Source: a virus (Duplodnaviria > Caudoviricetes). Taken from it: DNA of 64,000 nucleotides. The first letter of the stretch is position 1; the number at the start of each line of letters is the position of its first letter. This document shows positions 3,163-61,521 of this stretch, one piece after another. The DNA lies in IMG/VR virus record IMGVR_UViG_2900261899_000001, positions 32,001 to 96,000 of that record; one strand, 5' to 3'. The notes beneath the pieces were generated by a model, which was given only the letters and a program-made list of their open reading frames with translations, had not been told where the DNA came from and did no database searches. Position numbers and translations under genes: made by a program.

Positions 3163-3839
3163 GCCCCGGCTCCTTCAGCCCGAAGCCGGGCTACATGCGC
3201 CCTCCCTGTCTCGGTCAGCGCCCACCAGTTCGGGCGGACGCGAGCGACAAAGCCGGACTCCTTCAGCGCGGTGAGGCGCACGCTGCCGATCGACCGCGTC
3301 GGCCGATCCGCCGACCGGCCGGTCATCGCGACGCCGAACTGCATGGCGGTGCCGCCGGCATGGCCGAGGCCGGCGAAGACGAGCAGCAGGCGATCGAGGG
3401 CGGTGCGCTGGCGCTCCGCGGCCGTGCGCGCGGCTGTCGGCGAGACCCGGCAGCCAAGACGATGCAGTTCGGCGAGCCCAGCGTCGGTGAGGGTGTAGCG
3501 GGCGTGGCCGGTGCGCGTGACGAGGCCGTGCCGGACGAGCGCCGCCAGAAGGCTGCCGCCGAGAGCGCCGGCTTCGGCCGTGATCAGCGTCGGCTCGAGC
3601 GCATGACCGAGCGTGAGCGGCGAGACGTTGCCGCCGAGATCCGACACGGTCAGCAGGGCGAGTTCGCGCGAGGACTGTCGGGTCGCATCCGGCTCGCACG
3701 ATCCGCTCGCGTGGTCCGCGGGCACAGCCTGGAGGCCGGTCCGGACGACGTCGATCCGCGCGAGCACGGCCTCGGCCGGCGCACCGGCGCGAACGGCATC
3801 GGCAACGGAGGCGATGAGGGTGAGAAGGTCGGCGCTCAT
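3159..3839 (-). CDS. Hypothetical protein with tandem winged-helix-like segments
   Basis: ATG 3839 overlaps the upstream stop; two L..GLV...Y/W.LT..G motifs. Confidence 0.6.
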   Translation of the reverse strand: MSADLLTLIASVADAVRAGAPAEAVLARIDVVRTGLQAVPADHASGSCEPDATRQSSRELALLTVSDLGGNVSPLTLGHALEPTLITAEAGALGGSLLAALVRHGLVTRTGHARYTLTDAGLAELHRLGCRVSPTAARTAAERQRTALDRLLLVFAGLGHAGGTAMQFGVAMTGRSADRPTRSIGSVRLTALKESGFVARVRPNWWALTETGRAHVARLRAEGAGA

Positions 3840-4717
3840 CGGATCACCCCGAGATGCGCGGGCCGGCGGACCACGTCGGAGCAGGCGTCGGAGGGCCGGA
3901 CGTCGCGAACGGCAGAGGCCCCGAACGGGCTGCCGCAGACGACGCCGCGCCGGCACGTGCCGGTGAGGTCGCGGCCGACGAAGGCGGTGGCGTAGGCGTC
4001 GAGCTCGCTGCAGCGCAGGGGCGCGTAGCCGCGGATCACCACATCCCTGAAGCCGTAGCGCTCGGCGGTGTTGCGGGCGCCGTCGGGATCGCTGCCGCAG
4101 GCTGACAGCGGCAGCAGGAGCGCGAGGCCGGCCACGGCGCCGACGGTAGGGCTCGAAATAGCTGTGGCCTTCAGGCTGCCAATGAAAGCATCCCGGGCAG
4201 CAATCGCATCATCTATCGTTGCGAACCATCCAACATTAACGCGAATATTGAACCGCCTTACCCGCACACGATAAGGTTTTGCGCTGTTCATTGCAGGCGC
4301 ATACGCAATGCATGCGTGGCCGGTCCTATTGTCTTTACGTACGCTTAGATTCCCATTCTGGACGAAACGATTAGCAGGACGAAGATTTCCAATTCGATTG
4401 TTGCCGCGATCTCTATCTCTGTGGTCAATTTCTTCTGACGGCCAATTCCCTTTGATCAACAGCCAGGCGACACGATGGACTAAGAATCGCTGTCCCTTGA
4501 AGCCGAGTCGTCGATAGCCGTCACCGTTATCGCCGCCGGCTTCGTTGCCGCGCCGGGCATTGGCCGCAACGTCCTTCGACCAAAAGAGCTTGCCGGTAGC
4601 GGCCTCATACCTGAGGCACGACATAAGCTCGGTCGCTACATCGTCGGTCTCCGACCGATAGTCGTTATCATCTGCGTTCTGAGACGCGCCGGAGCGCGAA
4701 AGGGAAAAGGCGATCAT
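3836..4717 (-). CDS. HNH-AP2 homing endonuclease fused in frame to a lipoprotein-like C-terminus
   Basis: HRVAWLL..G.WP..EIDHRDRDRGNNRIGNLR; AP2-like VGWFATIDDAIAARD; then AVAGLALLLPLSAC lipobox. Confidence 0.8.
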   Translation of the reverse strand: MIAFSLSRSGASQNADDNDYRSETDDVATELMSCLRYEAATGKLFWSKDVAANARRGNEAGGDNGDGYRRLGFKGQRFLVHRVAWLLIKGNWPSEEIDHRDRDRGNNRIGNLRPANRFVQNGNLSVRKDNRTGHACIAYAPAMNSAKPYRVRVRRFNIRVNVGWFATIDDAIAARDAFIGSLKATAISSPTVGAVAGLALLLPLSACGSDPDGARNTAERYGFRDVVIRGYAPLRCSELDAYATAFVGRDLTGTCRRGVVCGSPFGASAVRDVRPSDACSDVVRRPAHLGVIR

Positions 4718-41713: not shown

Positions 41714-42310
41714 TCAGATCCGGCAGATGAGAGGGGCGAAGCCGGTCATGGTGAACCGGTGGAAGTTGAGGTTCGGCGGCGCGAGCAGGTCGGCGTTGAG
41801 CGCCGTCACGGCGTCGATCTGAGCTTGCAGTTCGGCGACGCGTTGATCGGTGTAGGCGGTGTCCGTCGGACCCTGCGGACCGGTGGTCAGCGCCGGCAGC
41901 ACCACGCCCGAACCGGGCTGGCCGGCCACGAGGATCTGCGTGAAGGCCGCCTGCTGCCGAACCAGGGCGCTGTCGGTGGCCGGAAGAACCCGGACCGATG
42001 ACCGCCCGAGCCATTCGTCGATCGTCGACCCCGTCACCGTCCGGTGAACGTCGAACACGAGCGTCGTCGGGGTCGAAGCGAGCCAACCCCCGCGCGCCGC
42101 CTTCGGGACCGATAGGATGAGACTGTCCGTCAGCCCGTTCGTGTCCGCGATCCAGGTGATCGCACCGTTCGCACTATCGAGCGCCACGGCCTCGGGACCG
42201 CCGAAGCTGCCTGTCATCGTGGCCGTGAGCCGCGATCCCGTCAGGTTCAGGGGAACGACGAGTGGGACAATGACCCGCCAATCCGCGGTATCGAGGCATG
42301 TAGCGGGCAT
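41714..42310 (-). CDS. Tail-associated protein; its first 15 codons match array A
   Basis: 198-aa ORF in the fibre cluster. Confidence 0.7.
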   Translation of the reverse strand: MPATCLDTADWRVIVPLVVPLNLTGSRLTATMTGSFGGPEAVALDSANGAITWIADTNGLTDSLILSVPKAARGGWLASTPTTLVFDVHRTVTGSTIDEWLGRSSVRVLPATDSALVRQQAAFTQILVAGQPGSGVVLPALTTGPQGPTDTAYTDQRVAELQAQIDAVTALNADLLAPPNLNFHRFTMTGFAPLICRI

Positions 42311-42364
42311 GGAAGACCTTCAGATCGACTTGCTCCCGCAAGGGACCGGGAATACCGTCGTGAC

Positions 42365-42483
42365 TAGCGCGGCATGGCACGGCACCGTTCGGCGTGGCAT
42401 GGCGAGGCACGGCGCGGCGAGGCTGGGTCGGGTCTGGCGTGGCGTGGTAGGGGTGAAGAGGTCGGCGTGAGCCGGCCTTTTCC
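42365..42483 (+). ncRNA. GGY-NN pentamer array A (putative guide RNA)
   Basis: TAGC, 16 pentamers at 42371-42450 (15 begin GGC/GGT), then GGGTGAAGAG-GTCGGC-GTGA-GCCGGC-CTTTTCC. Confidence 0.8.
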
Positions 42484-42614
42484 GCTTTTTGGAGCTACCG
42501 ACCGTCGTCGCCCTGCCAGAGGGCCTGATCGGCCTGTGCGGGTCTGGACATGGTGGATCTCGCATGAACGACTGCGCGGGCGCGCGGGCGAATGCACTCG
42601 ATCCGAGCGCCGCT

Positions 42615-42705
42615 ACGCCTCGGTGTTGCCGGCGCCGGGTTCGAGGAAGGACCGCGTGCCGTTGGTGACGGCCGACCGTGTGCGCGGACTGCGTTGCTTG
42701 GTCAT
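42615..42705 (-). pseudogene. Gene remnant
   Basis: MTKQRSPHTRSAVTNGTRSFLEPGAGNTEA* resembles a common rhizobial phage N-terminus and stops early at TAG. Confidence 0.35.
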
Positions 42706-42926
42706 GGGTCGCGCCTTGGCGTCCCCACTGTCTCTGATGTGGTCGAGCGATCAGTCTTCGAATAGTTGATCGTATCAAGCAGGGCGGGCGGTGACTGATC
42801 GGGATTGGCAGTAAAGGCACGGCCCTGCGCCAAGGCCGAAGCAAGCAACTGGATATGGATGCCACGAGGTCTTTTGAACCGTCCAGATGCTGCTATTTTT
42901 TTCTCCAAATCGTCTGACATTTTCAC
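42702..42926 (-). CDS. Hypothetical low-GC protein
   Basis: 74-aa ORF. Confidence 0.4.
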   Translation of the reverse strand: MKMSDDLEKKIAASGRFKRPRGIHIQLLASALAQGRAFTANPDQSPPALLDTINYSKTDRSTTSETVGTPRRDP

Positions 42927-42931
42927 CTATC

Positions 42932-45130
42932 TTAACCAAAATTGCGGTCAACGAATTTGTTCGTTGCGCCTGAGTTGTCGATAATACCTCCGGTGACGAG
43001 GTTTCTGGCGCTATTCTCAGTCACCCAGAAGTAATCACCGCATCCAGAGTCTAAGCGAACGCCAAATCCCTGCTTGGCCCCAGGCTGAGAGAAGTCGACG
43101 TTGAACTTGTTGCGGCTGATGTGAAAATCGGCATTGCCAGAACCGCCCACGCGAACGCCGCCGCTGCCGTTAATCGAAATATTGCAACTTTCGATGTTGA
43201 AGTTTTTGTTGTTGTTGTTGACTGCAAAGCCAATGTTTCGGCTTGCGCCAATGTCGCAGCCTATGAACTTGAGGCCGTCAGTGCTGTCCATCTGCACGGC
43301 GTTGCCGCCATGGTTCCAAGACCAGCATCCGATGTACATGCTCTGTGCGATCTGCGAGAGCAGCATCCCCTCGTGCGACGTATCCCAGAATACGTTCGCA
43401 TAGCGGTTGTAGCCTGAGCACTGACCACGGGTGAGGCTCGGCGAGCCAATCGTCTTGGCATAGAGCCCGCCGATGAAATCGCCGTCGCTGAGGATGATGG
43501 CCTCGCAGGCCCCGACCTGTCGCAGAGAACCAAGGCTGAAGTCGTAATCAATTGAGCTGATGGTGCCGACGGCGCCTGATGTGTTGCCCGTCACCGTCGT
43601 GCCAGCGGCCAGCTGGTTCGGGATCAGCATTCGGTACTGCGATCCAGTGAGCTGGATGATGTTCAAGCCCGTGTAAGGCGAGCCGGAGATCGTCAGCCCC
43701 TCGCCGGCCTGGAATGTGCCGTTGACGCTTGAGAAGTTGATGGTGTCGCAGATTGAGGCAGTAACGAACTGCGAGAGGAACACGTCGTTTGAGTTCTCGA
43801 TGTAGACGGCGGTCTCTCGGCCGTCCGACACGCCGAAATCATAGCCACGGACGCCCGCACTGTTCTTGACTGATATGCCTCGGTAGGCGGTCGAGATGTT
43901 GATGTCGTTGAAGTAGCCCGACACCTGCATGTCGAGGGCAACGCCAGCGGTCGGGCGAACCGAGAGCGACACCGGCCCCATGTCGATCCCGGAGATGCGG
44001 GAGCCGGGAACGCCGGTGGTGCGGATGAAGTTGGTGGTTCCCGTCGACCAGCGCACGCGGGTGATCGCTCGGCCCCGGCCGACGAGGCTCTGCCCGCGGG
44101 TGGCCACCAGCGTACCGCCAGCCGCACGATACTCGCCGGCGCCCATCAGCCCGAGGCCATTGTTTACGAGGGCGTCGATCGCCTTCTGAGTGGCCGCGAT
44201 GCAGTCGGTCGTCGTGTTCTTGAAGCCGTGAAACCAATCGACTTCGCAGACCGCGAGCCCAGCGATGGAGCCACCGGCCGACAGGTCGAAGATCTGATAG
44301 GCACCTGCAGTCAGACCCGCCGTGAAGGTGACCGTGACGCCGTTGTCCGGCTTCAGCATCACGCCACGCGGGAAACGATAGTGAGCCGAGAGGGTGATGT
44401 TGGACGAAATCCGGATCGTGCCGGGCTTAAGTAGCCATTCCCCGAAGCCTTGAAGCGCATCGGCGAACGAAAGATTTGCGGCATCGTCGGCCGTACCATT
44501 AGCGACCAGATTATTGAGAACAGGCGCCTTGGCGGCCAGAGACGCGGCTGTCGCCGCAGCATCGGCTGCTCCAACGTCGCTGGCGATGAGATTTATTGAC
44601 GATCCGGATTTGCCATTGACCGTCGTCGGATTGCCTTGAGGCCCTTGCAGGCCCGCAGCGCCAGTGGCGCCTTGCGGTCCTTGCGCGCCCTGTGCTCCAG
44701 CCGCGCCGGCAGGCCCTCGAATTTGGCCGACGTTGTGCCAGTTGCCGCCGGGGCCGGCGTCGTTGCCGGAGGCGGTGTAGACGTAGCCGTCGCCGCTGGA
44801 ATAGCCGGTCCCGTTCGACGTCATCAGGTAGACGTCGCCAAGCGTGTTGCCGGACGACGGAAGGTCCGAGGGGGTAGCCCGCGATCCTTTGATCGTCGTT
44901 CCCGCGCCTTGGTCGCCCTTCGGGCCAGGGTCGCCCTTCGGGCCAGGGTTGCCCTGCTGGCCGGGGTTGCCGCGCTCGCCACGCTCGCCCTGCAGACCGC
45001 GTTCGCCCTGGCCACCGGGCAAACCGGGGGCACCGGCGCCCCCAGGGAGGCCGCGTAGGCCCGGGGCGCCGCCGCCGAGCACGACCTGAGGCACGACGCC
45101 CGCGGAGGACGCGCCCAACACGTACGGCAT
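42932..45130 (-). CDS. Tail fibre/spike: collagen repeats plus beta-helix domain
   Basis: G-X-Y runs, WHNVGQIRGPAG, pectate-lyase-like repeats, GC drops toward the C-terminus. Confidence 0.82.
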   Translation of the reverse strand: MPYVLGASSAGVVPQVVLGGGAPGLRGLPGGAGAPGLPGGQGERGLQGERGERGNPGQQGNPGPKGDPGPKGDQGAGTTIKGSRATPSDLPSSGNTLGDVYLMTSNGTGYSSGDGYVYTASGNDAGPGGNWHNVGQIRGPAGAAGAQGAQGPQGATGAAGLQGPQGNPTTVNGKSGSSINLIASDVGAADAAATAASLAAKAPVLNNLVANGTADDAANLSFADALQGFGEWLLKPGTIRISSNITLSAHYRFPRGVMLKPDNGVTVTFTAGLTAGAYQIFDLSAGGSIAGLAVCEVDWFHGFKNTTTDCIAATQKAIDALVNNGLGLMGAGEYRAAGGTLVATRGQSLVGRGRAITRVRWSTGTTNFIRTTGVPGSRISGIDMGPVSLSVRPTAGVALDMQVSGYFNDINISTAYRGISVKNSAGVRGYDFGVSDGRETAVYIENSNDVFLSQFVTASICDTINFSSVNGTFQAGEGLTISGSPYTGLNIIQLTGSQYRMLIPNQLAAGTTVTGNTSGAVGTISSIDYDFSLGSLRQVGACEAIILSDGDFIGGLYAKTIGSPSLTRGQCSGYNRYANVFWDTSHEGMLLSQIAQSMYIGCWSWNHGGNAVQMDSTDGLKFIGCDIGASRNIGFAVNNNNKNFNIESCNISINGSGGVRVGGSGNADFHISRNKFNVDFSQPGAKQGFGVRLDSGCGDYFWVTENSARNLVTGGIIDNSGATNKFVDRNFG

Positions 45131-53520: not shown

Positions 53521-53754
53521 GTGCCGACGTTAAAGCGCTTCGACCAATTCAAGATTTGCGTCTTCGCTGACGATCATCCGCCGCCGCATTTCCATGTGAT
53601 CGGGCGCGGGTTTAAGGCAACGATCTTGTTCGAGACGCTATCGCTTGATGTCGGAGAATGCCCCCGGAAGGTGTTCGCGGAGGCGGTGACTTGGGCCGCC
53701 GTGAATCGCGAAGCCCTCGAAGAAGCTTGGAGGAACCTCAATGAGCGATCGTGA
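53521..53754 (+). CDS. DUF4160 family (putative toxin)
   Basis: DHPPPHFHV. Confidence 0.85.
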   Translation: MPTLKRFDQFKICVFADDHPPPHFHVIGRGFKATILFETLSLDVGECPRKVFAEAVTWAAVNREALEEAWRNLNERS

Positions 53755-54496
53755 CATGATCCGCGCCGGGGATCCTATTCCGTCGATCGGGGCCGTAGAG
53801 GTTGGCAACGGTCCTTACGACGTCCTTATCACCTGGGCCGATGGTCATCGAGCCGGCCAGCAAATCCTCATCGACCTCGCCCCAGTGATCCTGACCTACA
53901 AGGTCTTCATTCCGTTGCGCGATGACCGCCGTCTTTTCGCAACCGTGCGCGTGGCCGAGTACGGCGAGGCCATCGAGTGGGGTGATAACGATGATCTGGC
54001 GGTCGCTGGGACGACGTTGGAGCGCCTTGCCAACGAAACGATGACCAATGTCGATTTTGCAGCATTTCTGAAGCGCAACAGGCTCACACTAGATGCCGCA
54101 GCTGGGCAGCTCGGGATCGGTCGTCGTCAGGTGTCATACTACGCCAAAGGGCGGGAGATTCCGAGATATATCTCCCTCGCTTGTAAATATATCGAAGAGC
54201 GCAAAGCAGTAGATGATATAAATAATTATTTATCTGCCGGCAACACGCTTACTAAGATAGGATTGCACAACTGTGTTATAACTGACGGGAATAACAACTT
54301 CGATTGCGTGGCTCAAGCTACCGCGGCCTGGGACAGTAATGTCGTGATTATCAAAGATGGGGGGGTGATAGAAGGCTATTATGTACCACCGGGTGAGAAA
54401 CCTGAAGTGATAGTTAAAGGCGGTACGATTAAGGTAGGTTCGGGAAATGTAACTGGCACAAGGCGTGCTAAATTAAATCTTGATAAAATTAGATAA
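53741..54496 (+). CDS. DUF2442 + HTH antitoxin with low-GC C-terminal extension
   Basis: PLRDD..FATVRV..G.AIEW; AAGQLGIGRRQVSYYAKG.EIPR. Confidence 0.8.
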   Translation: MSDRDMIRAGDPIPSIGAVEVGNGPYDVLITWADGHRAGQQILIDLAPVILTYKVFIPLRDDRRLFATVRVAEYGEAIEWGDNDDLAVAGTTLERLANETMTNVDFAAFLKRNRLTLDAAAGQLGIGRRQVSYYAKGREIPRYISLACKYIEERKAVDDINNYLSAGNTLTKIGLHNCVITDGNNNFDCVAQATAAWDSNVVIIKDGGVIEGYYVPPGEKPEVIVKGGTIKVGSGNVTGTRRAKLNLDKIR

Positions 54497-54631
54497 TAGC
54501 CATGACCGACCGATCTCTCACCGCCGGGCACCGCGATGATATTCTTCTACGCACCTTAGACGGCGATTAGAAAAGACTGAGACATTACCCATTTGGGGTA
54601 GGATGATATACTAGATTAGGATACCTCAATC

Positions 54632-54937
54632 GTGCAGCTTACAATTGAAGTGGGCGAACTTAAGGTTCTGGCGAGCGGTGTACTGCTTGTCGATTCCGGT
54701 CGAGATGTAAAGTTTACAATTGAAGGAAATGTGTTTGAGCTTATGATTGATAAAGATGGGCCGCCATATGAAAAGGTTGGCACAAATCATATTCGAGCCT
54801 ACTTTAACACTGATAAAATGGTCAGTACTAGTTCAATGATCGGCGATTATAATGGTAGGCCGTTAATGATCTCAATCCGTGTTCAGCAGCAAGGTACCCA
54901 CATTAGGCAGGTTTTTTATACACTGGGTCATCATTAA
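54632..54937 (+). CDS. Low-GC beta-rich hypothetical protein
   Basis: 101-aa ORF; TAATG coupling to next gene. Confidence 0.6.
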   Translation: MQLTIEVGELKVLASGVLLVDSGRDVKFTIEGNVFELMIDKDGPPYEKVGTNHIRAYFNTDKMVSTSSMIGDYNGRPLMISIRVQQQGTHIRQVFYTLGHH

Positions 54938-55239
54938 TGGCTGTCCGTCTAGATCTTCCGCCTGACAAAACTTTGGCAACCCGTGTAATTGAAACGGAAG
55001 CCGAGCACAATACGCGAAAACTTGAGCGCGGTTTAATGGGTTTGATCTTTGGTCTCGCCACCGAAAAACCCGGAAATATCGCTGGCTTTGCGCTGATAGC
55101 TTTCTGCCTCATGTTTGCGGGGGTTTTGATTTGGGGCACCGATAGCAGCAGTCTATCAAAGAAAGACGTACTTTCGCTTATAGGTGGTTTTATCACCTTA
55201 ACGCTCGGCTTCGTATTTGGTCGAACATCATCGTCTTAG
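54937..55239 (+). CDS. Low-GC small membrane protein
   Basis: Two TM segments; LGFVFG end. Confidence 0.65.
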   Translation: MAVRLDLPPDKTLATRVIETEAEHNTRKLERGLMGLIFGLATEKPGNIAGFALIAFCLMFAGVLIWGTDSSSLSKKDVLSLIGGFITLTLGFVFGRTSSS

Positions 55240-55276
55240 ATGTGTGGTGCAACGAAGTCATGGACATGAAGAAAAT

Positions 55277-55371
55277 GGAAAAGGCCGGCGCGAGCCAGCC
55301 CTTTCACCCTTGCCTCGCCTCAACAAACCCCGCCCCGCGGTACCCCGCCTTGGCCGGCCGTGCCTTAGCTA
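55277..55371 (-). ncRNA. GGY-NN pentamer array B (putative guide RNA)
   Basis: Minus strand: TAGC-TAA, 11 pentamers at 55364-55310 (8 GGY), then GGGTGAAAG-GGCTGGC-TCGC-GCCGGCC-TTTTCC. Confidence 0.78.
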
Positions 55372-55456: not shown

Positions 55457-57976
55457 TCAGGCTAGGACGCGACCGCCGTACCCTACCGGCGTTTTCAGCG
55501 TCGAATCGTCGAACGAACCGGTCCCGTTTCTCGTGTTCGCTTCGGCGACCTGATGGTGCGTCACGGACCGACCGACCGTGCGGCCGTCGAGATGCACCGA
55601 GCTGGCAACCTGGATCGGGGCGGAACGCCCCTTGTAGATCAGGGAGCTCGATTTGCCGGGTGTCGCACCGCCACCGCCACCGCCGCCGGACGCGCCGCTT
55701 CCGAGATCGGCGCCGCCCGCCGGTTTGGCGCTTGCGCTTCCGATCGCGGCACGAGCAGCAGCCGCTACCCCGCCGATCCAACCCGCAAGCGCGTTCAGCG
55801 GGCCGCCAGCGCCTTGCGCCGCTTGCCCCGCCTTCTGAGCGCCAGACGCAGCCTCATTGAGCGTGGAGACCGCACCAGCTGCCGTAGACGCGAGCCGCTG
55901 CTTGGCCGCTTCGATATTCTCCGTCGAAAGGCCCAGCCCTTCGGTGCCGATGTGACGCCGCGGGTTTTCACCACCGCCCGTCATGAATCCGTCGGGACCG
56001 CCGAACTCGAATGGCGTGGTACTTTTTCGGCGCTGCTCGGATAGAGTGTCGGCAAGTTTGCGAGCTGGCTCGCCTGCGATCTTATCCCACGGAAGCGTGA
56101 CGGCGGCGATGGTGACAGCCGCACCGGCACCGACAGCCAGCGCTGGAAGGCTGAGCGTGCCGACGGCGGCAATAGCTAGTGCTGCAATACCCGCAGCTGC
56201 CGCACCACCGACAACAGCGGCCGTGGCGCCCATCGCCGTCTCGGCTGCGACTGGATGCTTCTCTAGTGTGTTTGCCACGCCTCCAAGCGCTGCGTTCAAG
56301 CGGTTAAGGTTGTCGACAAGGTTTGGGATTGCTGGCTCCGAGAGTGCGGTCGCCACTGCGCCGCCCTGCGATTTGGTGCCCTGCAGAGCCGCATAGGGGT
56401 CGTCGCGCCTATAGGCCGTGGTATCGCCGGAAGTCTTATCGTACCCGGCGAAGTCTTTTTCGATCTTACTTTTTTGCTGCGCCAATTCGAACAAAAATCC
56501 GTAGGCGTTCTTGTCGGTAAAAATTTTACCGAGGGTACGAAGCAGATCGGTCTTGTCATCAGTATTGACGCCACCCGCTTTGAGCTTCGGAATGACGTTG
56601 TTGTAAAGCCATAGATCCGGGTCCTTGGCCCGGTCATAAGTTTTTCCGTCCAAGCCCACATCTGAAAATTGAGCACCCGGCTGGACTAACGTGTGTTTCT
56701 TGTTCCAAGTGACAGTTGGTTCTTGAAGAAGATTATATTTGTAGGCTTCAGTGAGCCCCGAGCCCAGCATACGCAAGCCACCGACACCCTTTGCCGCGAA
56801 GGTCGCGAACTGGGTACCGGCGCGCTGTCCAATTTCCTGCGAAAGCGCCGCGAAGGCGCCGTAGCGAAAGTGGTCGCTGGTCAGATTTAGCATCTGACCG
56901 CCGTTTTTCTGTGCGGTAAAGTAGTTCGATGGGTTGAGCTTGTCGCCGTACCAGAAGGCCAACCTCATCAGCGAGTTGGCGTGCTTCTTGACCCCCTCCG
57001 AGGTAATCTCGTTAGCTGTTTCAGCCGATTTCACGGCCGTGTAAATCTCGTTTACAGCGTTCTTAGCGCCGTGATTGCCGGCTTTGGCCTTCAGTGCCGA
57101 GAACTCTGGTAGCAATTCTGGCGCTTCGTGAATTGCTTTGTCGATGTCGCCAAGAATACCGCGGAGATCGTTGATGTGCTCGAAGATCTCGACAGGGGAT
57201 AGATTAGGAAATTGTTGCGAACCCTTATATGAAAGTTCCTTGGCATGATCGATCTGCGCTGGGCTAGCTCCGGTCTGCCGCATGCCGAGTTCAATGTGGC
57301 GCATATCGACGCCGGTCTCGATGACCTCAGAGAGCGTATGGACCCCGCCGGAGACCCCAATGACGCTTGCAAGTGCCGAGCCTTCATGGCCGACGAGACC
57401 ATGCGTTCCGTGACTGCGCCGGCCATGCCCCCTGCCACGCGTGGCGCGCCCGGCACCGGTGCCAGCGCCCCCGGCCCCGCCGCCACCCCGGACGGGCGTT
57501 GGCAAGTTCACATTGCTCGCGGCTGACTGCAGGCGACGCATGGCGCCGGCCGCCGAATTGATCCGGCTCGTCCAACCCGAGATCGACTGCGTGACACCCC
57601 GCGCCGCTGAAGCGACGCCTTGGGTCTCGCGGCGCATGACGCGCATCTCGGCGATGGGCTTGCCGATGGCGCTGGCCCAGCGCTGCATTTCACGGTCCAG
57701 ACCGTTGCCACCCTTCAAGCCAGACATGGCACGCGAGATCCGCGCGACCTCGCGCTCGATCTTTTGGCCGGCGGAGGAGGACTTCGACAGTTCGCGGTTC
57801 AGTTGGCCGGCGGCGGACGCAGCGCGGTTCAGGGGCGAGACCCAGCGACCGAACGATTTCTCAACGGATTTGGTTTTAGAGTCGACATCGCTCAGGGTCT
57901 TGAGCAGGCGCGTCATCTCGGGCACGAGATTGCCCGCGAGCGTCATGCTCGTCTGGATGCGATACACGTCGCTCAC
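55457..57976 (-). CDS. Tail tape measure protein
   Basis: 839 aa, helical and Ala/Gly-rich, VHLDGRTVG near end; position in tail operon. Confidence 0.85.
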   Translation of the reverse strand: MSDVYRIQTSMTLAGNLVPEMTRLLKTLSDVDSKTKSVEKSFGRWVSPLNRAASAAGQLNRELSKSSSAGQKIEREVARISRAMSGLKGGNGLDREMQRWASAIGKPIAEMRVMRRETQGVASAARGVTQSISGWTSRINSAAGAMRRLQSAASNVNLPTPVRGGGGAGGAGTGAGRATRGRGHGRRSHGTHGLVGHEGSALASVIGVSGGVHTLSEVIETGVDMRHIELGMRQTGASPAQIDHAKELSYKGSQQFPNLSPVEIFEHINDLRGILGDIDKAIHEAPELLPEFSALKAKAGNHGAKNAVNEIYTAVKSAETANEITSEGVKKHANSLMRLAFWYGDKLNPSNYFTAQKNGGQMLNLTSDHFRYGAFAALSQEIGQRAGTQFATFAAKGVGGLRMLGSGLTEAYKYNLLQEPTVTWNKKHTLVQPGAQFSDVGLDGKTYDRAKDPDLWLYNNVIPKLKAGGVNTDDKTDLLRTLGKIFTDKNAYGFLFELAQQKSKIEKDFAGYDKTSGDTTAYRRDDPYAALQGTKSQGGAVATALSEPAIPNLVDNLNRLNAALGGVANTLEKHPVAAETAMGATAAVVGGAAAAGIAALAIAAVGTLSLPALAVGAGAAVTIAAVTLPWDKIAGEPARKLADTLSEQRRKSTTPFEFGGPDGFMTGGGENPRRHIGTEGLGLSTENIEAAKQRLASTAAGAVSTLNEAASGAQKAGQAAQGAGGPLNALAGWIGGVAAAARAAIGSASAKPAGGADLGSGASGGGGGGGATPGKSSSLIYKGRSAPIQVASSVHLDGRTVGRSVTHHQVAEANTRNGTGSFDDSTLKTPVGYGGRVLA

Positions 57977-58521: not shown

Positions 58522-59028
58522 TTATCGAGGCGGAAACAACAAAAGCGTCAAAAAGGCCGTTTTGCTATCTTCGCTAGCGGCCTCAAGCCCGGTCAACGCC
58601 GACTTTGCAATAAGAATAAAGTGCTCGACTTCTGACACAGTTAAGACGTGTGATGGGTCATAATCGGCTAGCATACGCTGTTCATATAGGTCAATAAATG
58701 CGTCGGCGTACCCGGTTATTTGCGCATCAAATCCGCCTGCCGGCCAATACCTGCTGTATTTCTGGCTTGGATTCTGCTTTTTTATTTCAACACAAAGAGA
58801 CCTCATTTTGCCGTGATCTATTGATCTGTAAGCCAAGCTATAAAGGCTGCTGCCTCTTTTATCCTCTCCGACGGACTGGTCGGCGGCCGCCTTCAGACCG
58901 GCATGGAACACGGCATAATAGGTAGCCGATACTGCTCTACATCTGTCAGCCAAGCGCGGTCGTTCCTGCCCAGGCAGCACAGCGAGCAGGCGTTCGGCCT
59001 GCTCAACCAAATGTGCGGGTTCGATCAC
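58522..59028 (-). CDS. HEPN (UPF0332-like) protein
   Basis: RAVSATYYAVFH, RMLADYDP. Confidence 0.75.
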   Translation of the reverse strand: MIEPAHLVEQAERLLAVLPGQERPRLADRCRAVSATYYAVFHAGLKAAADQSVGEDKRGSSLYSLAYRSIDHGKMRSLCVEIKKQNPSQKYSRYWPAGGFDAQITGYADAFIDLYEQRMLADYDPSHVLTVSEVEHFILIAKSALTGLEAASEDSKTAFLTLLLFPPR

Positions 59029-60062: not shown

Positions 60063-60560
60063 ATGCAAAATCGGAGAGCAATCCTCACGGCCCTTATTGC
60101 GGTACCGCTGACTGGGCCGTTGTGTGCGGGTCAGCCTCATCTTGACGCGGCCCTGCTCGACCTCGGCAGGCGCTTCGATGCCGCCGTGGCGGCGCACAAA
60201 GCCCACGTCCGGGCCTACTTCGCGGCTGACGAGGCCCATACCCAGGCGCTCCAGGCCGCTAAGTCGGCTGGGCGGTTCAAGGGGCTCGACGCTGAAGCCT
60301 ACGCAGCGCTCCACTCGCAGCTAATTGAGCCGTTCAACGCGGCGCTAGAGAGGGACGACGAACTCCACGACGCCTGCGGCAAGCTGGGCGAGCAAATCAT
60401 CGCGATCCAACCCAAGACTCTGGATGGAATCGCTGTTCTTGCCCGTGTCTGCCAGTTCGAATCGCGGCAGGCCTGGGAAGCGCCGAAGAGCCGCGAGTAC
60501 GATGAGGACGTCCTCGTTGCCCTCGTCGACGGCATCTTGGCCGTGGCCGCTACGGCGTGA
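60063..60560 (+). CDS. Hypothetical helical protein
   Basis: GGAG RBS; DAALLDLG, PKTLDGI.V.AR. Confidence 0.65.
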   Translation: MQNRRAILTALIAVPLTGPLCAGQPHLDAALLDLGRRFDAAVAAHKAHVRAYFAADEAHTQALQAAKSAGRFKGLDAEAYAALHSQLIEPFNAALERDDELHDACGKLGEQIIAIQPKTLDGIAVLARVCQFESRQAWEAPKSREYDEDVLVALVDGILAVAATA

Positions 60561-61000
60561 CCTACGAGGAATACCTTGCATCCCCACGATGGGCCGAGCT
60601 GCGCCGGCTGAGGCTAGCCCTCGACGGATTCCGCTGCCGGGGCTGCGATACCGCCGACAATCTTGAGGTTCACCACCGGCGCTACGGCACCCCGCTGGGC
60701 AGCGAGACGGTCGACGACCTGACGACGCTCTGTGGCGGCCCCGAGGGCTGCCACCACGCGATCACCACCATCATCCGCCGCCGCCTGTACGCGACCCGTC
60801 AGTATGACGTGACCGCAGTCGCTCGGCTGGCCCCCGGCAATCTGGAGAAGAACGATGTCCCAGGACTACGAGCGTTTAAGATTTCGGCTCACCGGCGTGT
60901 CGCCCCTGGTCATGCACAACGGTCGCTTGGCGAACCCGCTGGACTCGTTTGCGAAGGCGCTGAAGGCGGTCTCGGGAAAGCGCGGCAAGACGGACGCTGA
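60557..61000 (+). CDS. HNH endonuclease
   Basis: YEEYLASPRW, CRGC...LEVHHRRY...LTTLC....CH. Confidence 0.85.
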   Translation: MTYEEYLASPRWAELRRLRLALDGFRCRGCDTADNLEVHHRRYGTPLGSETVDDLTTLCGGPEGCHHAITTIIRRRLYATRQYDVTAVARLAPGNLEKNDVPGLRAFKISAHRRVAPGHAQRSLGEPAGLVCEGAEGGLGKARQDGR

Positions 61001-61430
61001 CTTCGAGGAGATGGCCCGTATCGAGTTCCTGGGCGGCCTCTATGTCGGCGACGATGGTCCTTGCATCCCCGGCGAATTGATCGAAGCGGTCCTGATCGCG
61101 GCGGCCAAAAAGAACAAGCGCGGCATGCAGGCCAAGGCCGGCATCCTTTCGGACGGCAACCACCGGGTCGAGTACCACGGCCCCAGAGGGGCAGAGGAGC
61201 TGTGGGCGGACGACCGCTTCCGCCTCGTTGCCGGCGTTCGTGTCGGACAGGCCCGTGTGATGCGGACCCGCCCGATCTTTCGGGAGTGGTCGTCAGAAAT
61301 CTTCGTTGACTTCCTGCCGGGTCAATTGAACCGGGCGGACGTCGCGGGAATGGTTAGAACCGCAGGCACCATCGTCGGCATCGGCGATTGGAGGCCGCGG
61401 TTTGGAAGGTTCACAGTGGAGACGCTGTGA
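60855..61430 (+). CDS. Stand-alone RAMP/Cas7-like protein
   Basis: LTGVSPLVMH start, PCIPGELIEAVL, Gly-rich C-terminal loop GIGDWRPRFGRF; GGAG RBS at 60844. Confidence 0.7.
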   Translation: MSQDYERLRFRLTGVSPLVMHNGRLANPLDSFAKALKAVSGKRGKTDADFEEMARIEFLGGLYVGDDGPCIPGELIEAVLIAAAKKNKRGMQAKAGILSDGNHRVEYHGPRGAEELWADDRFRLVAGVRVGQARVMRTRPIFREWSSEIFVDFLPGQLNRADVAGMVRTAGTIVGIGDWRPRFGRFTVETL

Positions 61431-61521
61431 TAGCCCGGTAGGGCAAGGCGGGTCGCGGCATGCCTCGGCAAGGCGTGGTTCGGTAGGGGTGAAAAGGGCC
61501 GGCTTTCGCCGGCCCTTTTCC
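61431..61521 (+). ncRNA. GGY-NN pentamer array C (putative guide RNA) with terminator hairpin
   Basis: TAGC, 10 pentamers at 61437-61486 (8 GGY), then GGGTGAAAAGGGCCGGC-TTTC-GCCGGCCCTTTTCC. Confidence 0.8.

What the first reader, a model, noticed from the sequence alone, without database searches (positions are those of the whole stretch)
42266..42483. Array A decodes to the first 15 codons of the neighbouring tail gene
Seen: NN of the pentamers at 42371-42445 are AT AC AC TC GT AT GA AC GC GA TG CG CT GT GT. The divergent gene starting at 42310 reads ATG CCC GCT ACA TGC CTC GAT ACC GCG GAT TGG CGG GTC ATT GTC, so positions 1-2 are AT CC GC AC TG CT GA AC GC GA TG CG GT AT GT. This gives 8/15 dinucleotides and 22/30 nt, with six consecutive matches (D-T-A-D-W-R) and the first unit on the start codon. 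The guide spells a plausible homolog N-terminus (M-T-T-S-V-I-D-T-A-D-W-R-L-V-V vs own MPATCLDTADWRVIV). Same register and sense as array B, so it independently supports the code. A TCCC-GCAA-GGGA hairpin at 42334-42345 precedes the array.
Basis: partly seen in the sequence, partly recalled or inferred. Interest (0 to 1): 0.93.

Follow-up and report, generated by a model that had tools for sequence, protein, structure and literature searches.

The report
Phage VIPR guide RNA beside its target
The pentamer array is a guide RNA of a recently described phage system (VIPR) that reads two of every three bases of a rival phage's gene, and here it sits right beside its own phage's mismatched copy of that gene.

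Summary
The NN dinucleotides of 15 GGCNN units (42371-42445, +) match codon positions 1-2 of the ORF starting at 42310 (-) in 22 of 30 bases. That is the best of about 128,000 window positions (next best 19) and the best in the 4.6 Mb genome.

It is a vrRNA of a VIPR system, described in 2026 preprints: GGY/NN repeats, a conserved 3' tail, and DNA recognition that skips every third (wobble) base. The window also holds a Vipr gene (60855-61430; E 1.2e-31 to the solved SUSP1 Vipr), an overlapping HNH accessory gene, and two more vrRNAs (B at 61437, C at 55364 on the minus strand).

Guide A matches the same site in relatives' alleles better than its own. Seven of 8 alleles beat the resident 0.73, and 5 of 8 reach the published 0.80 threshold. 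Guide C behaves the same way at the tape-measure C-terminus (0.91 against 0.77 self).

This is a new member of a known kind.

One feature may be new. A and C lie 19 kb and 6 kb from vipr, each within 170 nt of the resident near-cognate site. No expression data could be obtained.

The parts
42371..42450 (+). vrRNA A repeat tract. It has 16 GGY/NN units. The first 15 (42371-42445) are the guide the finding describes. The last unit, GGTAG, is conserved next to the tail and may belong to it.
   Evidence: My own caller gave 16 units with 0.98 conformity to GGY. Sequence. TRF reports periods of 10 and 25 here.
42451..42483 (+). vrRNA A 3' tail: GGGUGA, a 12-bp hairpin (42455-42482), then C. A T5 run follows at 42486-42490.
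   Evidence: Stem found by the terminator scan. The hairpin shows compensatory changes in 9 of 14 pairs across 12 tails from the window and related loci. Covariance model R1 scores it 60.0 bits.
42330..42370 (+). Putative promoter and leader of vrRNA A (TTGCTC ... TAGCGC). It includes the 4-bp TCCC/GGGA hairpin. This part is inferred only.
   Evidence: Read from sequence. The sigma-70 consensus scan found no promoter here. A TAGC motif 2-3 nt before the first unit is shared by A, B and C (n = 3).
42266..42310 (-). Near-cognate self site: the first 15 codons of the resident 198-aa gene. It matches guide A in 22/30 bases (0.73), with mismatches in units 2-6, 13 and 14.
41714..42310 (-). A 198-aa gene of the tail-fibre module. 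The N-terminal ~150 aa are conserved, followed by a GPQG motif and a variable C-terminus. Function unknown.
   Evidence: ORF. No Pfam or PHROG family. 9 homologues aligned from residue 1. Its neighbours are tail-fibre and tail-spike genes.
60855..61430 (+). vipr: a 191-aa minimal RAMP protein, the effector that binds the GGY motifs.
   Evidence: phmmer E 1.2e-31 over residues 8-190 to PDB 36pp_D 'SUSP1 Vipr protein'; profile E 1.8e-45. Model pLDDT 92.6. Foldseek top hits are type III CRISPR-Cas effector-complex chains (Csm, Cmr), plus type VII complexes and Cas6. Matches phrog_4652.
60557..61000 (+). Candidate vap: a 147-aa HNH-like protein whose gene overlaps the vipr start by about 145 nt.
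   Evidence: PHROG HNH endonuclease families, best E 1.3e-6. Pfam gave no hit at E <= 0.01. Conserved directly upstream of vipr in 48 of 80 IMG/VR loci, over its full length in the best-listed ones. The paralogue on contig C2 passes Pfam HNH PF01844.
61437..61521 (+). vrRNA B: 10 units (61437-61486) plus a tail with a 13-bp hairpin. It begins 7 nt after the vipr stop codon.
   Evidence: R1 scores it 54.2 bits.
55277..55364 (-). vrRNA C: 11 units (55364-55310) plus a tail. It lies about 90 nt downstream of the tape-measure stop codon.
   Evidence: R1 scores it 60.2 bits.
55502..55537 (-). Near-cognate self site of guide C: in-frame codons NTRNGTGSFDDS near the C-terminus of the tape-measure protein. 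It scores 17/22 (0.77) against the 11 called units, or 19/24 if the preceding unit is included.
   Evidence: Best hit of the whole window for this guide. Table and permutations: 7 of 2000 permuted guides reach the score for 11 units, 0 of 2000 for 12 units.
55457..57976 (-). 839-aa ORF read as the tape-measure protein on length, Gly/Ala-rich composition and its place in the tail module. No family search was run on it.
   Evidence: ORF and translation. Homologous C-termini.

Best explanation
Array A is the gene for a vrRNA, the guide RNA of a VIPR (Viral Interference Programmable Repeat) system carried by this prophage.

How it most likely works:
- By homology to the solved SUSP1 system, copies of the 191-aa Vipr protein (60855-61430) polymerise along the RNA.
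- Each protomer pair sequesters one GGY triplet and exposes the following NN.
- The exposed dinucleotides pair with one strand of double-stranded DNA, skipping every third base. A 15-unit guide therefore reads positions 1-2 of 15 consecutive codons and is blind to synonymous wobble changes.

Guide A is tuned to the conserved N-terminal coding sequence, start codon included, of a tail-module gene family of related prophages. Bound there, the filament would block transcription of the rival's tail genes. Because the accessory protein here is HNH-like, it might also cut, but that is not shown.

The resident allele, 60 nt away, differs in 7 of 15 units, including 2 of the 3 tail-proximal guide units. 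The structural preprint describes protomer assembly and unwinding progressing 3'-to-5' along the vrRNA from the tail end, so the resident phage probably escapes its own guide. Guide C does the same at the tape-measure C-terminus.

What is shown: the anatomy, homology of the protein to a solved Vipr, tail covariation, and better matches to foreign than to self alleles. What is inferred: transcription of the RNA, its loading on Vipr, silencing, self-tolerance, and any nuclease role.
For: (1) The published definition fits. vrRNAs are 9-16 YNNGG repeats followed by an invariable 3' tail. Targets follow a one-base skip aligned to codon wobble, with natural targets taken at >=80% NN match and no self hits at that level (10.64898/2026.04.26.720920; Results, Discussion and Methods sections 18, 20 and 27 read).

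(2) Vipr homology: E 1.2e-31 (single sequence) and 1.8e-45 (profile) to PDB 36pp_D, nearly end to end. The model has pLDDT 92.6. 21 Foldseek PDB hits have E <= 0.001, among them Csm, Cmr, type VII and Cas6 chains. H21 is invariant and D178 nearly invariant in 40 homologues. I read these as counterparts of the H17 and G-loop D175 that a figure legend of the structural preprint describes as contacting G1 (passage seen). That residue equivalence is my inference.

(3) 80 IMG/VR loci with vipr relatives carry 193 confident GGY/NN arrays. 152 of them lie 0-1.5 kb downstream of vipr on the same strand. Some have the same GGGUGA-hairpin tail. The hairpin covaries in 9 of 14 pairs.

(4) A, B and C are the only three such elements in the 4.6 Mb genome.

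(5) Guide A against alleles: self 22/30; non-self 26, 25, 25, 24, 24, 23, 23, 21. Each of these is the best hit in its locus and lies at the homologous site. The guide equals the majority NN in 13/15 units.

(6) Guide C: self 17/22; two of three foreign tape-measure alleles 20/22, the third 14/22. The resident Arg codon is AGA where the foreign alleles have CGC, a change that breaks a guide match without changing the protein.

(7) 0 of 8 and 0 of 3 homologous loci carry an array.
Against: - There is no evidence that any of the three RNAs is made. No sequencing run was listed, and the consensus scan finds no promoter for A.
- No perfect target exists in what I could search. The best is 26/30, and exact-pattern scans of 10-11 units found nothing in IMG/VR or JGI metagenomes.
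- If all 16 called units count, only 1 of 8 alleles reaches 0.80 (L121, 26/32 = 0.81).
- Mismatch tolerance of this Vipr is unknown. 'Mismatch' and 'seed' do not occur in the main text of the structural preprint, so 0.73-0.79 self matches might still bind.
- The crude test for extra divergence of the resident allele inside the footprint was negative: 6/15 against 15/40 codons, Fisher p = 1.0. The alignment beyond about codon 20 is unreliable for 5 alleles.
- Guide B has no convincing target.
- The tail here is a plain hairpin. The pseudoknot described for the SUSP1 clade was not looked for.
Confidence: 0.9

Rival explanations
1. Cis-acting self-regulator. A and C are placed beside the resident genes because they act on them. 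A partial-match VIPR filament, loaded next to its site, would dampen or time expression of the prophage's own tail genes, for example by keeping them silent in the lysogen. This reading is not exclusive of rival targeting.
For: Both dispersed guides have their best window-wide match within 170 nt of themselves. 0 of 2000 permuted guides for A, and 7 of 2000 for C (11 units), do as well locally. Self identities of 0.73-0.79 lie just under an empirical threshold whose functional meaning for this Vipr is untested. A relative's vrRNA (G306) has an 18/20 match 5 kb away on its own contig.
Against: Foreign alleles match better than self in 7 of 8 cases (A) and 2 of 3 cases (C). Guide A follows the family consensus, not the neighbour. 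Self mismatches fall in 2 of the 3 tail-proximal guide units of A and in the last unit of C, the end from which the structural preprint describes unwinding progressing (passage seen). The published surveys report no self hits at >=0.80 (section 27).
Confidence: 0.15
2. Decoy or hijacking guides. A and C are 'solo' vrRNAs of the kind described for satellites and vipr-less phages. Their role would be to redirect a rival's Vipr rather than arm the resident one.
For: Solo vrRNAs exist, and an array with the nearest vipr beyond 20 kb is called solo in 10.64898/2026.10.15.759431 (abstract and sections 8, 17 and 20 seen). A lies 19 kb from vipr.
Against: A, B and C share one tail (R1 scores 54-60 bits), and B directly follows the resident vipr. 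All three therefore most simply serve the resident protein. Their matches are to phage structural genes, not to multi-copy host repeats.
Confidence: 0.04
3. Chance resemblance in a G-rich repeat, a terminator-associated repeat or an ordinary antisense sRNA, with no code.
For: The genome-wide score of 22/30 is only just above the tail of the distribution (three hits at 21). Rfam holds no family for it.
Against: The hit lies on the adjacent start codon. All 8 foreign alleles hit at the same site. A second guide shows the same behaviour. A solved-structure homologue of the effector lies in the same prophage.
Confidence: 0.01

Closest known systems
VIPR systems of Escherichia phage SUSP1 and a Pseudomonas fulva prophage (type II; bioRxiv 10.64898/2026.04.26.720920 and 10.64898/2026.04.26.720927)
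   Same: A ~190-aa Vipr protein with the G-loop GDWRPRFGRF, alignable end to end with SUSP1 Vipr. vrRNAs of 10-16 GGY/NN units with a conserved 3' tail. One-base-skip matches with the skip on codon wobble. Foreign phage genes as best targets, and sub-threshold self matches. One vrRNA directly downstream of vipr.
   Different: The host is an alphaproteobacterium with 67.6% GC. The tail is a plain 12-13 bp hairpin after GGGUGA, whereas a pseudoknot is described for the SUSP1 clade. The accessory gene is HNH-like and overlaps vipr, whereas type II Vaps are described as DNA-binding proteins. Two of the three vrRNAs are dispersed in the structural module.
Solo or orphan vrRNAs and self/non-self discrimination (bioRxiv 10.64898/2026.10.15.759431)
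   Same: vrRNAs away from a vipr gene, and self-match scores lower than scores to rivals as the way to avoid autoimmunity (section 8). The scan method is the same as mine (section 17).
   Different: Those solos lie at the former VIPR locus of vipr-less phages or in satellites. They target vipr, other vrRNAs, satellites or host REP decoys. Here the phage keeps vipr, and the dispersed guides lie beside the resident homologue of their structural-gene target.
Class 1 CRISPR backbone (Cas7/Csm3 filaments on crRNA)
   Same: RAMP fold: Foldseek hits to chains of type III Csm and Cmr complexes with TM 0.4-0.57. A protein filament on the guide interrupts pairing periodically.
   Different: No CRISPR array or cas operon was seen while annotating the window, though no dedicated CRISPR search was run. 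The period is 5 nt with 2 paired bases, rather than 6 nt with 5 paired. Each guide is a stand-alone gene. Membership is not claimed.
Free-standing homing endonuclease genes of T-even phages, and guide-directed homing by TnpB/IscB (recalled from memory, no call)
   Same: A selfish cassette sits next to a resistant allele of the sequence it attacks in relatives. That is the geometry seen for A and C, together with an HNH accessory gene.
   Different: No cleavage, gene conversion or spread of the cassette is shown here. 0 of 11 homologous loci carry it. This is an analogy only.

Membership tests
VIPR system | A Vipr protein: a minimal RAMP with an RRM core, G-loop and thumb | tested here: met
   ORF 60855-61430 against PDB 36pp_D 'SUSP1 Vipr protein': E 1.2e-31, residues 8-190 aligned to 4-189; profile E 1.8e-45. 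AlphaFold2 pLDDT 92.6. Foldseek gave 21 hits with E <= 0.001, among them Csm, Cmr, type VII and Cas6 chains. The thumb was not inspected residue by residue.
VIPR system | vrRNA: tandem pentamers with conserved GGY and variable NN (9-16 units; at least 4 for calling) | tested here: met
   A has 16 units (conformity 0.98), B has 10 (0.93) and C has 11 (0.91). The caller made one 7-unit false call inside a coding region. GGCNN x4 with <=1 mismatch gave 13 matches against 3.95 expected, and 0 of 100 shuffles reached 13.
VIPR system | An invariable, structured 3' tail after the repeats | tested here: met
   GGG(U/A)GA plus a hairpin. 9 of 14 pairs have compensatory changes in 12 tails. Model R1 finds exactly A, B and C in the genome. 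The pseudoknot reported for the SUSP1 clade was not tested.
VIPR system | One-base-skip match (>=80% of NN positions) to another mobile element, with the skip base on codon wobble | tested here: met
   Guide A (15 units): 5 of 8 foreign alleles reach >=0.80, all in frame. Guide C (11 units): 2 of 3 at 0.91, in frame. Counting 16 units for A, only 1 of 8 reaches 0.80. Guide B: no convincing target.
VIPR system | No self-targeting at >=80% NN match | tested here: met
   Best self hits on the window: A 0.73 (0.69 with 16 units); C 0.77 (0.79 with 12 units); B 0.70 (14/20). C is borderline.
VIPR system | A vipr-accessory gene (vap) in a minimal two-gene operon | tested here: met
   An HNH-like ORF at 60557-61000 lies directly upstream and overlaps vipr. 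It is conserved in 48 of 80 related loci. PHROG HNH families, best E 1.3e-6. Which vap1-6 class it belongs to was not determinable.
VIPR system | vrRNA is expressed as a ~100-nt RNA and co-purifies with Vipr | not testable with these tools
   No sequencing run was listed for the locus.
VIPR system | Guide-dependent dsDNA binding or transcriptional silencing | not testable with these tools
   Needs reporter or binding assays.
Rfam RNA families | A match at the gathering score to any of 4227 models | tested here: not met
   0 matches in the 64-kb window. VIPR RNAs appear not to be in Rfam 15.

The most novel reading that the evidence does not exclude
vrRNA genes A and C are weapon-plus-immunity cassettes. 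Each guide gene is physically linked, within 170 nt, to an escape allele of the very sequence it attacks in relatives. Recombinants that inherit the guide then also inherit tolerance to it.

With the HNH accessory protein, attack on a sensitive allele in a co-resident or co-infecting relative could be followed by repair from this prophage. That repair would copy the guide gene and the immune allele into the rival. This would be RNA-guided homing of a guide gene, a way for VIPR guides to spread and perhaps to arise next to their template.
Probability: 0.12. Interest if true: 0.8.

Novelty: new member of a known kind. Interest (0 to 1): 0.5.

Why it matters
The code withstands independent tests here, which validates this kind of scan.

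Biologically, the window adds a high-GC alphaproteobacterial prophage to the VIPR systems. Its guides are aimed at conserved ends of structural genes: the start of a tail-module gene and the C-terminus of the tape measure.

It also gives a concrete natural example of self/non-self discrimination. Because the guide ignores wobble bases, escape requires changes at codon positions 1-2. The resident alleles differ from the guides by conservative amino-acid replacements in gene A and by a CGC-to-AGA arginine codon change in the tape measure.

The placement of two guides beside their own near-cognate sites, far from vipr, was not seen in 80 related loci. If it proves general, it bears on an open question: how VIPR guides arise, spread and stay compatible with their carrier.

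Tried and rejected
- Motif search GGYARGGGTGAARRGG in 201 genomes of the family: 130 had a match, but almost all were the RNase P RNA, which shares this motif by coincidence. After removing hits followed by the RNase P continuation, only the window's own elements and three unrelated sites remained among the 34 loci held at that point, four of them from the own-genome search.
- The search for related loci with the single 198-aa protein found nothing in viral or genome contigs. With the alignment it found 3 + 1 loci, and the metagenome scan returned the same contig as L038.
- Exact one-base-skip patterns of 11 and 10 guide-A units: 0 hits in viral contigs and 0 in metagenome contigs.
- Sequencing runs: none was listed and no RNA holder was listed.
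- Guide B: the best window hit is 14/20, the best local hit 12/20, and the best in 84 loci 15/20. Genome-wide the best is 17/20 at two sites. One lies 1.5 kb from the second vipr on C2, but it is not in wobble phase. I treat it as a lead only.
- Reciprocal attack: 157 unique guides from related loci were scanned against the window. 3 reached >=0.80 (all 9-10 units), against 0 of 157 permuted guides with a null maximum of 0.78. This is not convincing.
- Covariance model R1 across 146 genomes of the genus: only the window's three elements, plus two weak hits with E about 6e-4. The tool's strict filters may lose matches, and vipr relatives in the genus have other tails.
- Test for excess divergence of the resident allele inside the guide footprint: not significant.
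- Ideas dropped before the literature hit: a 5'UTR fold-back pairing (2-bp helices are not stable), quintuplet translation or editing of the array (reading NNG gives I to M and D to E, so the identity is at positions 1-2 only), G-quadruplex repeats, a TRAP-like ring site, and a planted synthetic element. The last is unlikely because the guide follows natural homologues rather than the neighbour.
- The VIPR type was not assigned. The type figures, data files and supplementary tables of the preprints were not available to me and may already list this locus or dispersed guides.
Full report
**What is there.** Between two minus-strand genes of a prophage tail-fibre module lies a 620-bp spacer. The flanking genes are the 732-aa collagen-like fibre at 42932-45130 and the 198-aa ORF at 41714-42310. 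On the plus strand of the spacer are 16 pentamers of the form GGY-NN (42371-42450). They are followed by GGGTGA, a 12-bp GC-rich hairpin (42455-42482) and a T run. TRF sees the array as periods of 10 and 25. Rfam has no family for it.

**Checking the observation.**
- An unbiased scan of the NN string with a one-base skip over both strands of the window puts 42310(-) first at 22. The runner-up scores 19.
- Over the whole genome it is still first, but only just: three sites score 21. The score alone is therefore marginal genome-wide.
- The place carries the weight. The site is 60 nt away, exactly on the start codon, and 0 of 2000 permuted guides reach 22 within 41800-43000.
- Control registers of the pentamer give maxima of similar z when 18 units are used, so the 15-unit choice flatters the score a little.

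**Two sister elements.** The same architecture occurs twice more in the window and nowhere else in the 4.6 Mb genome. B is at 61437-61521 (+) and C is at 55364-55277 (-). All three share a TAGC just before the first unit, a variable pentamer tract, and the GGGUGA-hairpin tail.

**Homologues settle that this is not chance.** The 198-aa protein has 9 relatives in the protein collection, aligned from residue 1 with N-termini such as MATTVIDTADW. This also supports the ATG at 42310 over the shorter 167-aa gene call. DNA for 8 non-self alleles in the genus came from 7 of 145 other genomes, one of which had two matches. In every one, the best hit of guide A in the locus is the homologous N-terminal site.
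- Non-self scores are 26, 25, 25, 24, 24, 23, 23 and 21 of 30. The resident scores 22.
- The guide equals the majority dinucleotide of those alleles in 13 of 15 units.
- None of the 8 loci has an array nearby.

**Guide C repeats the pattern.** Its best hit in the whole window is in frame, 140-170 nt upstream on the same strand. It covers the codons NTRNGTGSFDD near the C-terminus of the 839-aa ORF I read as the tape-measure protein. The resident site scores 17/22. Two of three foreign tape-measure alleles score 20/22 at the homologous site, and the third scores 14/22. The resident arginine codon is AGA where the foreign alleles have CGC. That change alters positions 1-2 but not the protein.

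[quoted passage not shown] I read its abstract, Results, Discussion and Methods sections 18, 20 and 27. It describes VIPR systems with these features:
- a ~20 kDa RAMP protein (Vipr) plus vrRNAs of 9-16 YNNGG repeats and an invariable 3' tail;
- NN bases that pair with double-stranded DNA under a 'one-nucleotide skip rule', with the skipped base on codon wobble;
- natural targets that are competing phages, taken at >=80% NN match;
- no self hits at that level.

I read three further preprints in part.
- The first gives the structural mechanism: a filament on the RNA, GGY sequestered, a gapped R-loop triplex, and assembly and unwinding that progress 3'-to-5' along the vrRNA from the tail (10.64898/2026.04.26.720927; abstract and passages).
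- The second covers solo vrRNAs and self/non-self scores (10.64898/2026.10.15.759431; abstract and sections 8, 17 and 26 plus passages).
- The third recovers VIPR arrays by a language model (10.64898/2026.10.21.760802; passages).

**Membership tests.**
- The ORF directly upstream of B (60855-61430, 191 aa) matches the solved 'SUSP1 Vipr protein' (PDB 36pp_D) at E 1.2e-31 over nearly its whole length. The match includes the G-loop GDWRPRFGRF. A 40-sequence profile gives E 1.8e-45.
- Its model (pLDDT 92.6) resembles chains of type III Csm and Cmr complexes, type VII complexes and Cas6 in the PDB.
- The family is large: 1111 proteins at E <= 1e-5, none carrying a functional name in the listed rows.
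- In 80 IMG/VR loci with relatives (310 found, 80 kept), my caller found 193 confident GGY/NN arrays. 152 lie within 1.5 kb downstream of vipr on the same strand, 38 just upstream, and 3 nearby on the other strand.
- Twelve tails from the window and three related loci share a hairpin with compensatory changes in 9 of 14 pairs.
- An HNH-like ORF (60557-61000) overlaps the vipr start by about 145 nt. It is conserved in 48 of the 80 loci, so I take it as the accessory gene (vap).

I could not assign one of the seven published types. The main text says types III-V carry nucleases or helicases and type II carries DNA-binding Vaps.

**Mechanism proposed.** Vipr coats vrRNA A and exposes 15 dinucleotides that read codon positions 1-2 of the first 15 codons of rivals' alleles of this tail-module gene. 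This would block transcription of their tail genes. The resident allele is spared because 7 of 15 units mismatch, including 2 of the 3 tail-proximal guide units.

This last step is inference. I found no data on mismatch tolerance, and my crude test for extra divergence of the resident allele inside the footprint was negative. If the 16th unit counts as guide, only one foreign allele reaches 0.80. That unit, GGTAG, is conserved next to the tail in A and B, so I think it belongs to the handle.

**What may be new.** In the 80 related loci, none of the 193 arrays lay more than 2.5 kb from vipr (flanks were at most 10 kb). Here C is 6 kb away on the other strand and A is 19 kb away. Each lies within 170 nt of the resident near-cognate copy of its target.

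In the parts of the preprints I read, and in term searches of them, I found nothing about dispersed guides beside self alleles. Their supplements might cover it.

The arrangement is not general among the closest relatives I could inspect. G221 has one array 8 kb from vipr with no nearby self match. G306 has a guide with an 18/20 self match 5 kb away.

Linkage of a guide to an immune allele, with an HNH partner, recalls free-standing homing endonucleases (recalled, not tested). I give RNA-guided homing a probability of 0.12.

**Limits.** No expression evidence could be obtained. No promoter was found by consensus scan. No perfect target was found.

**Verdict.** The element is a vrRNA of a VIPR system: a new member of a kind published in 2026, with an unusual and possibly informative placement.

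Noticed in passing
G000 contig C2:130571-136448 (locus L146:4572-10449): A second VIPR locus lies in the same genome, next to an integrase. It has an HNH vap (C2:132631-132996, Pfam PF01844), a vipr paralogue (132827-133429, 42% identity, phrog_4652), and a 7-unit vrRNA at 133419 with a different tail.
   Followed up: partly
window 61437-61486 against G000 C2:134923-134952: Guide B's two best genome-wide matches score 17/20. One lies 1.5 kb downstream of the second vipr, inside an 889-aa ORF, but with the skipped base not on wobble. It could be cross-targeting of the other VIPR element, or it could be chance.
   Followed up: partly
window 60557-61000 / 60855-61430: The HNH-like accessory gene and vipr overlap by about 145 nt in different frames. 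tblastn recovers the HNH-like ORF upstream of vipr in 48 of 80 related loci, full length in the closest ones, and the C2 paralogue pair overlaps in the same way.
   Followed up: partly
G306:C162:25635 (L152) and G221:C3:667585 (L148): A relative's vrRNA has an 18/20 match 5 kb away on its own contig. Another relative has a vrRNA-like array 8 kb from vipr with a different tail.
   Followed up: no
window 42451-42466, 61487-61502, 55309-55294; G000 C24:11725-11740: The tail motif GGYARGGGTGAARGG is also present in the RNase P RNA of most genomes of the family (130 of 201 genomes matched the pattern). I take it as coincidence, but it swamps motif searches.
   Followed up: partly
window 3611-4196: ARAGORN calls a 586-nt permuted tmRNA here. 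Rfam found nothing at gathering score anywhere in the window, so this is probably a false call.
   Followed up: no
window 53741-55250: Just past vrRNA C, between the tape-measure gene and the rest of the tail genes, lies a stretch that reads as AT-rich and holds plus-strand ORFs. One is a weak DUF6864 match (E 1.3e-5, below the Pfam cut-off). It looks like a moron island.
   Followed up: no
window 58522-59028 (-): A 168-aa ORF with a weak HEPN-domain match (E 0.0035, below the Pfam cut-off) lies about 1.5 kb from the VIPR operon.
   Followed up: no
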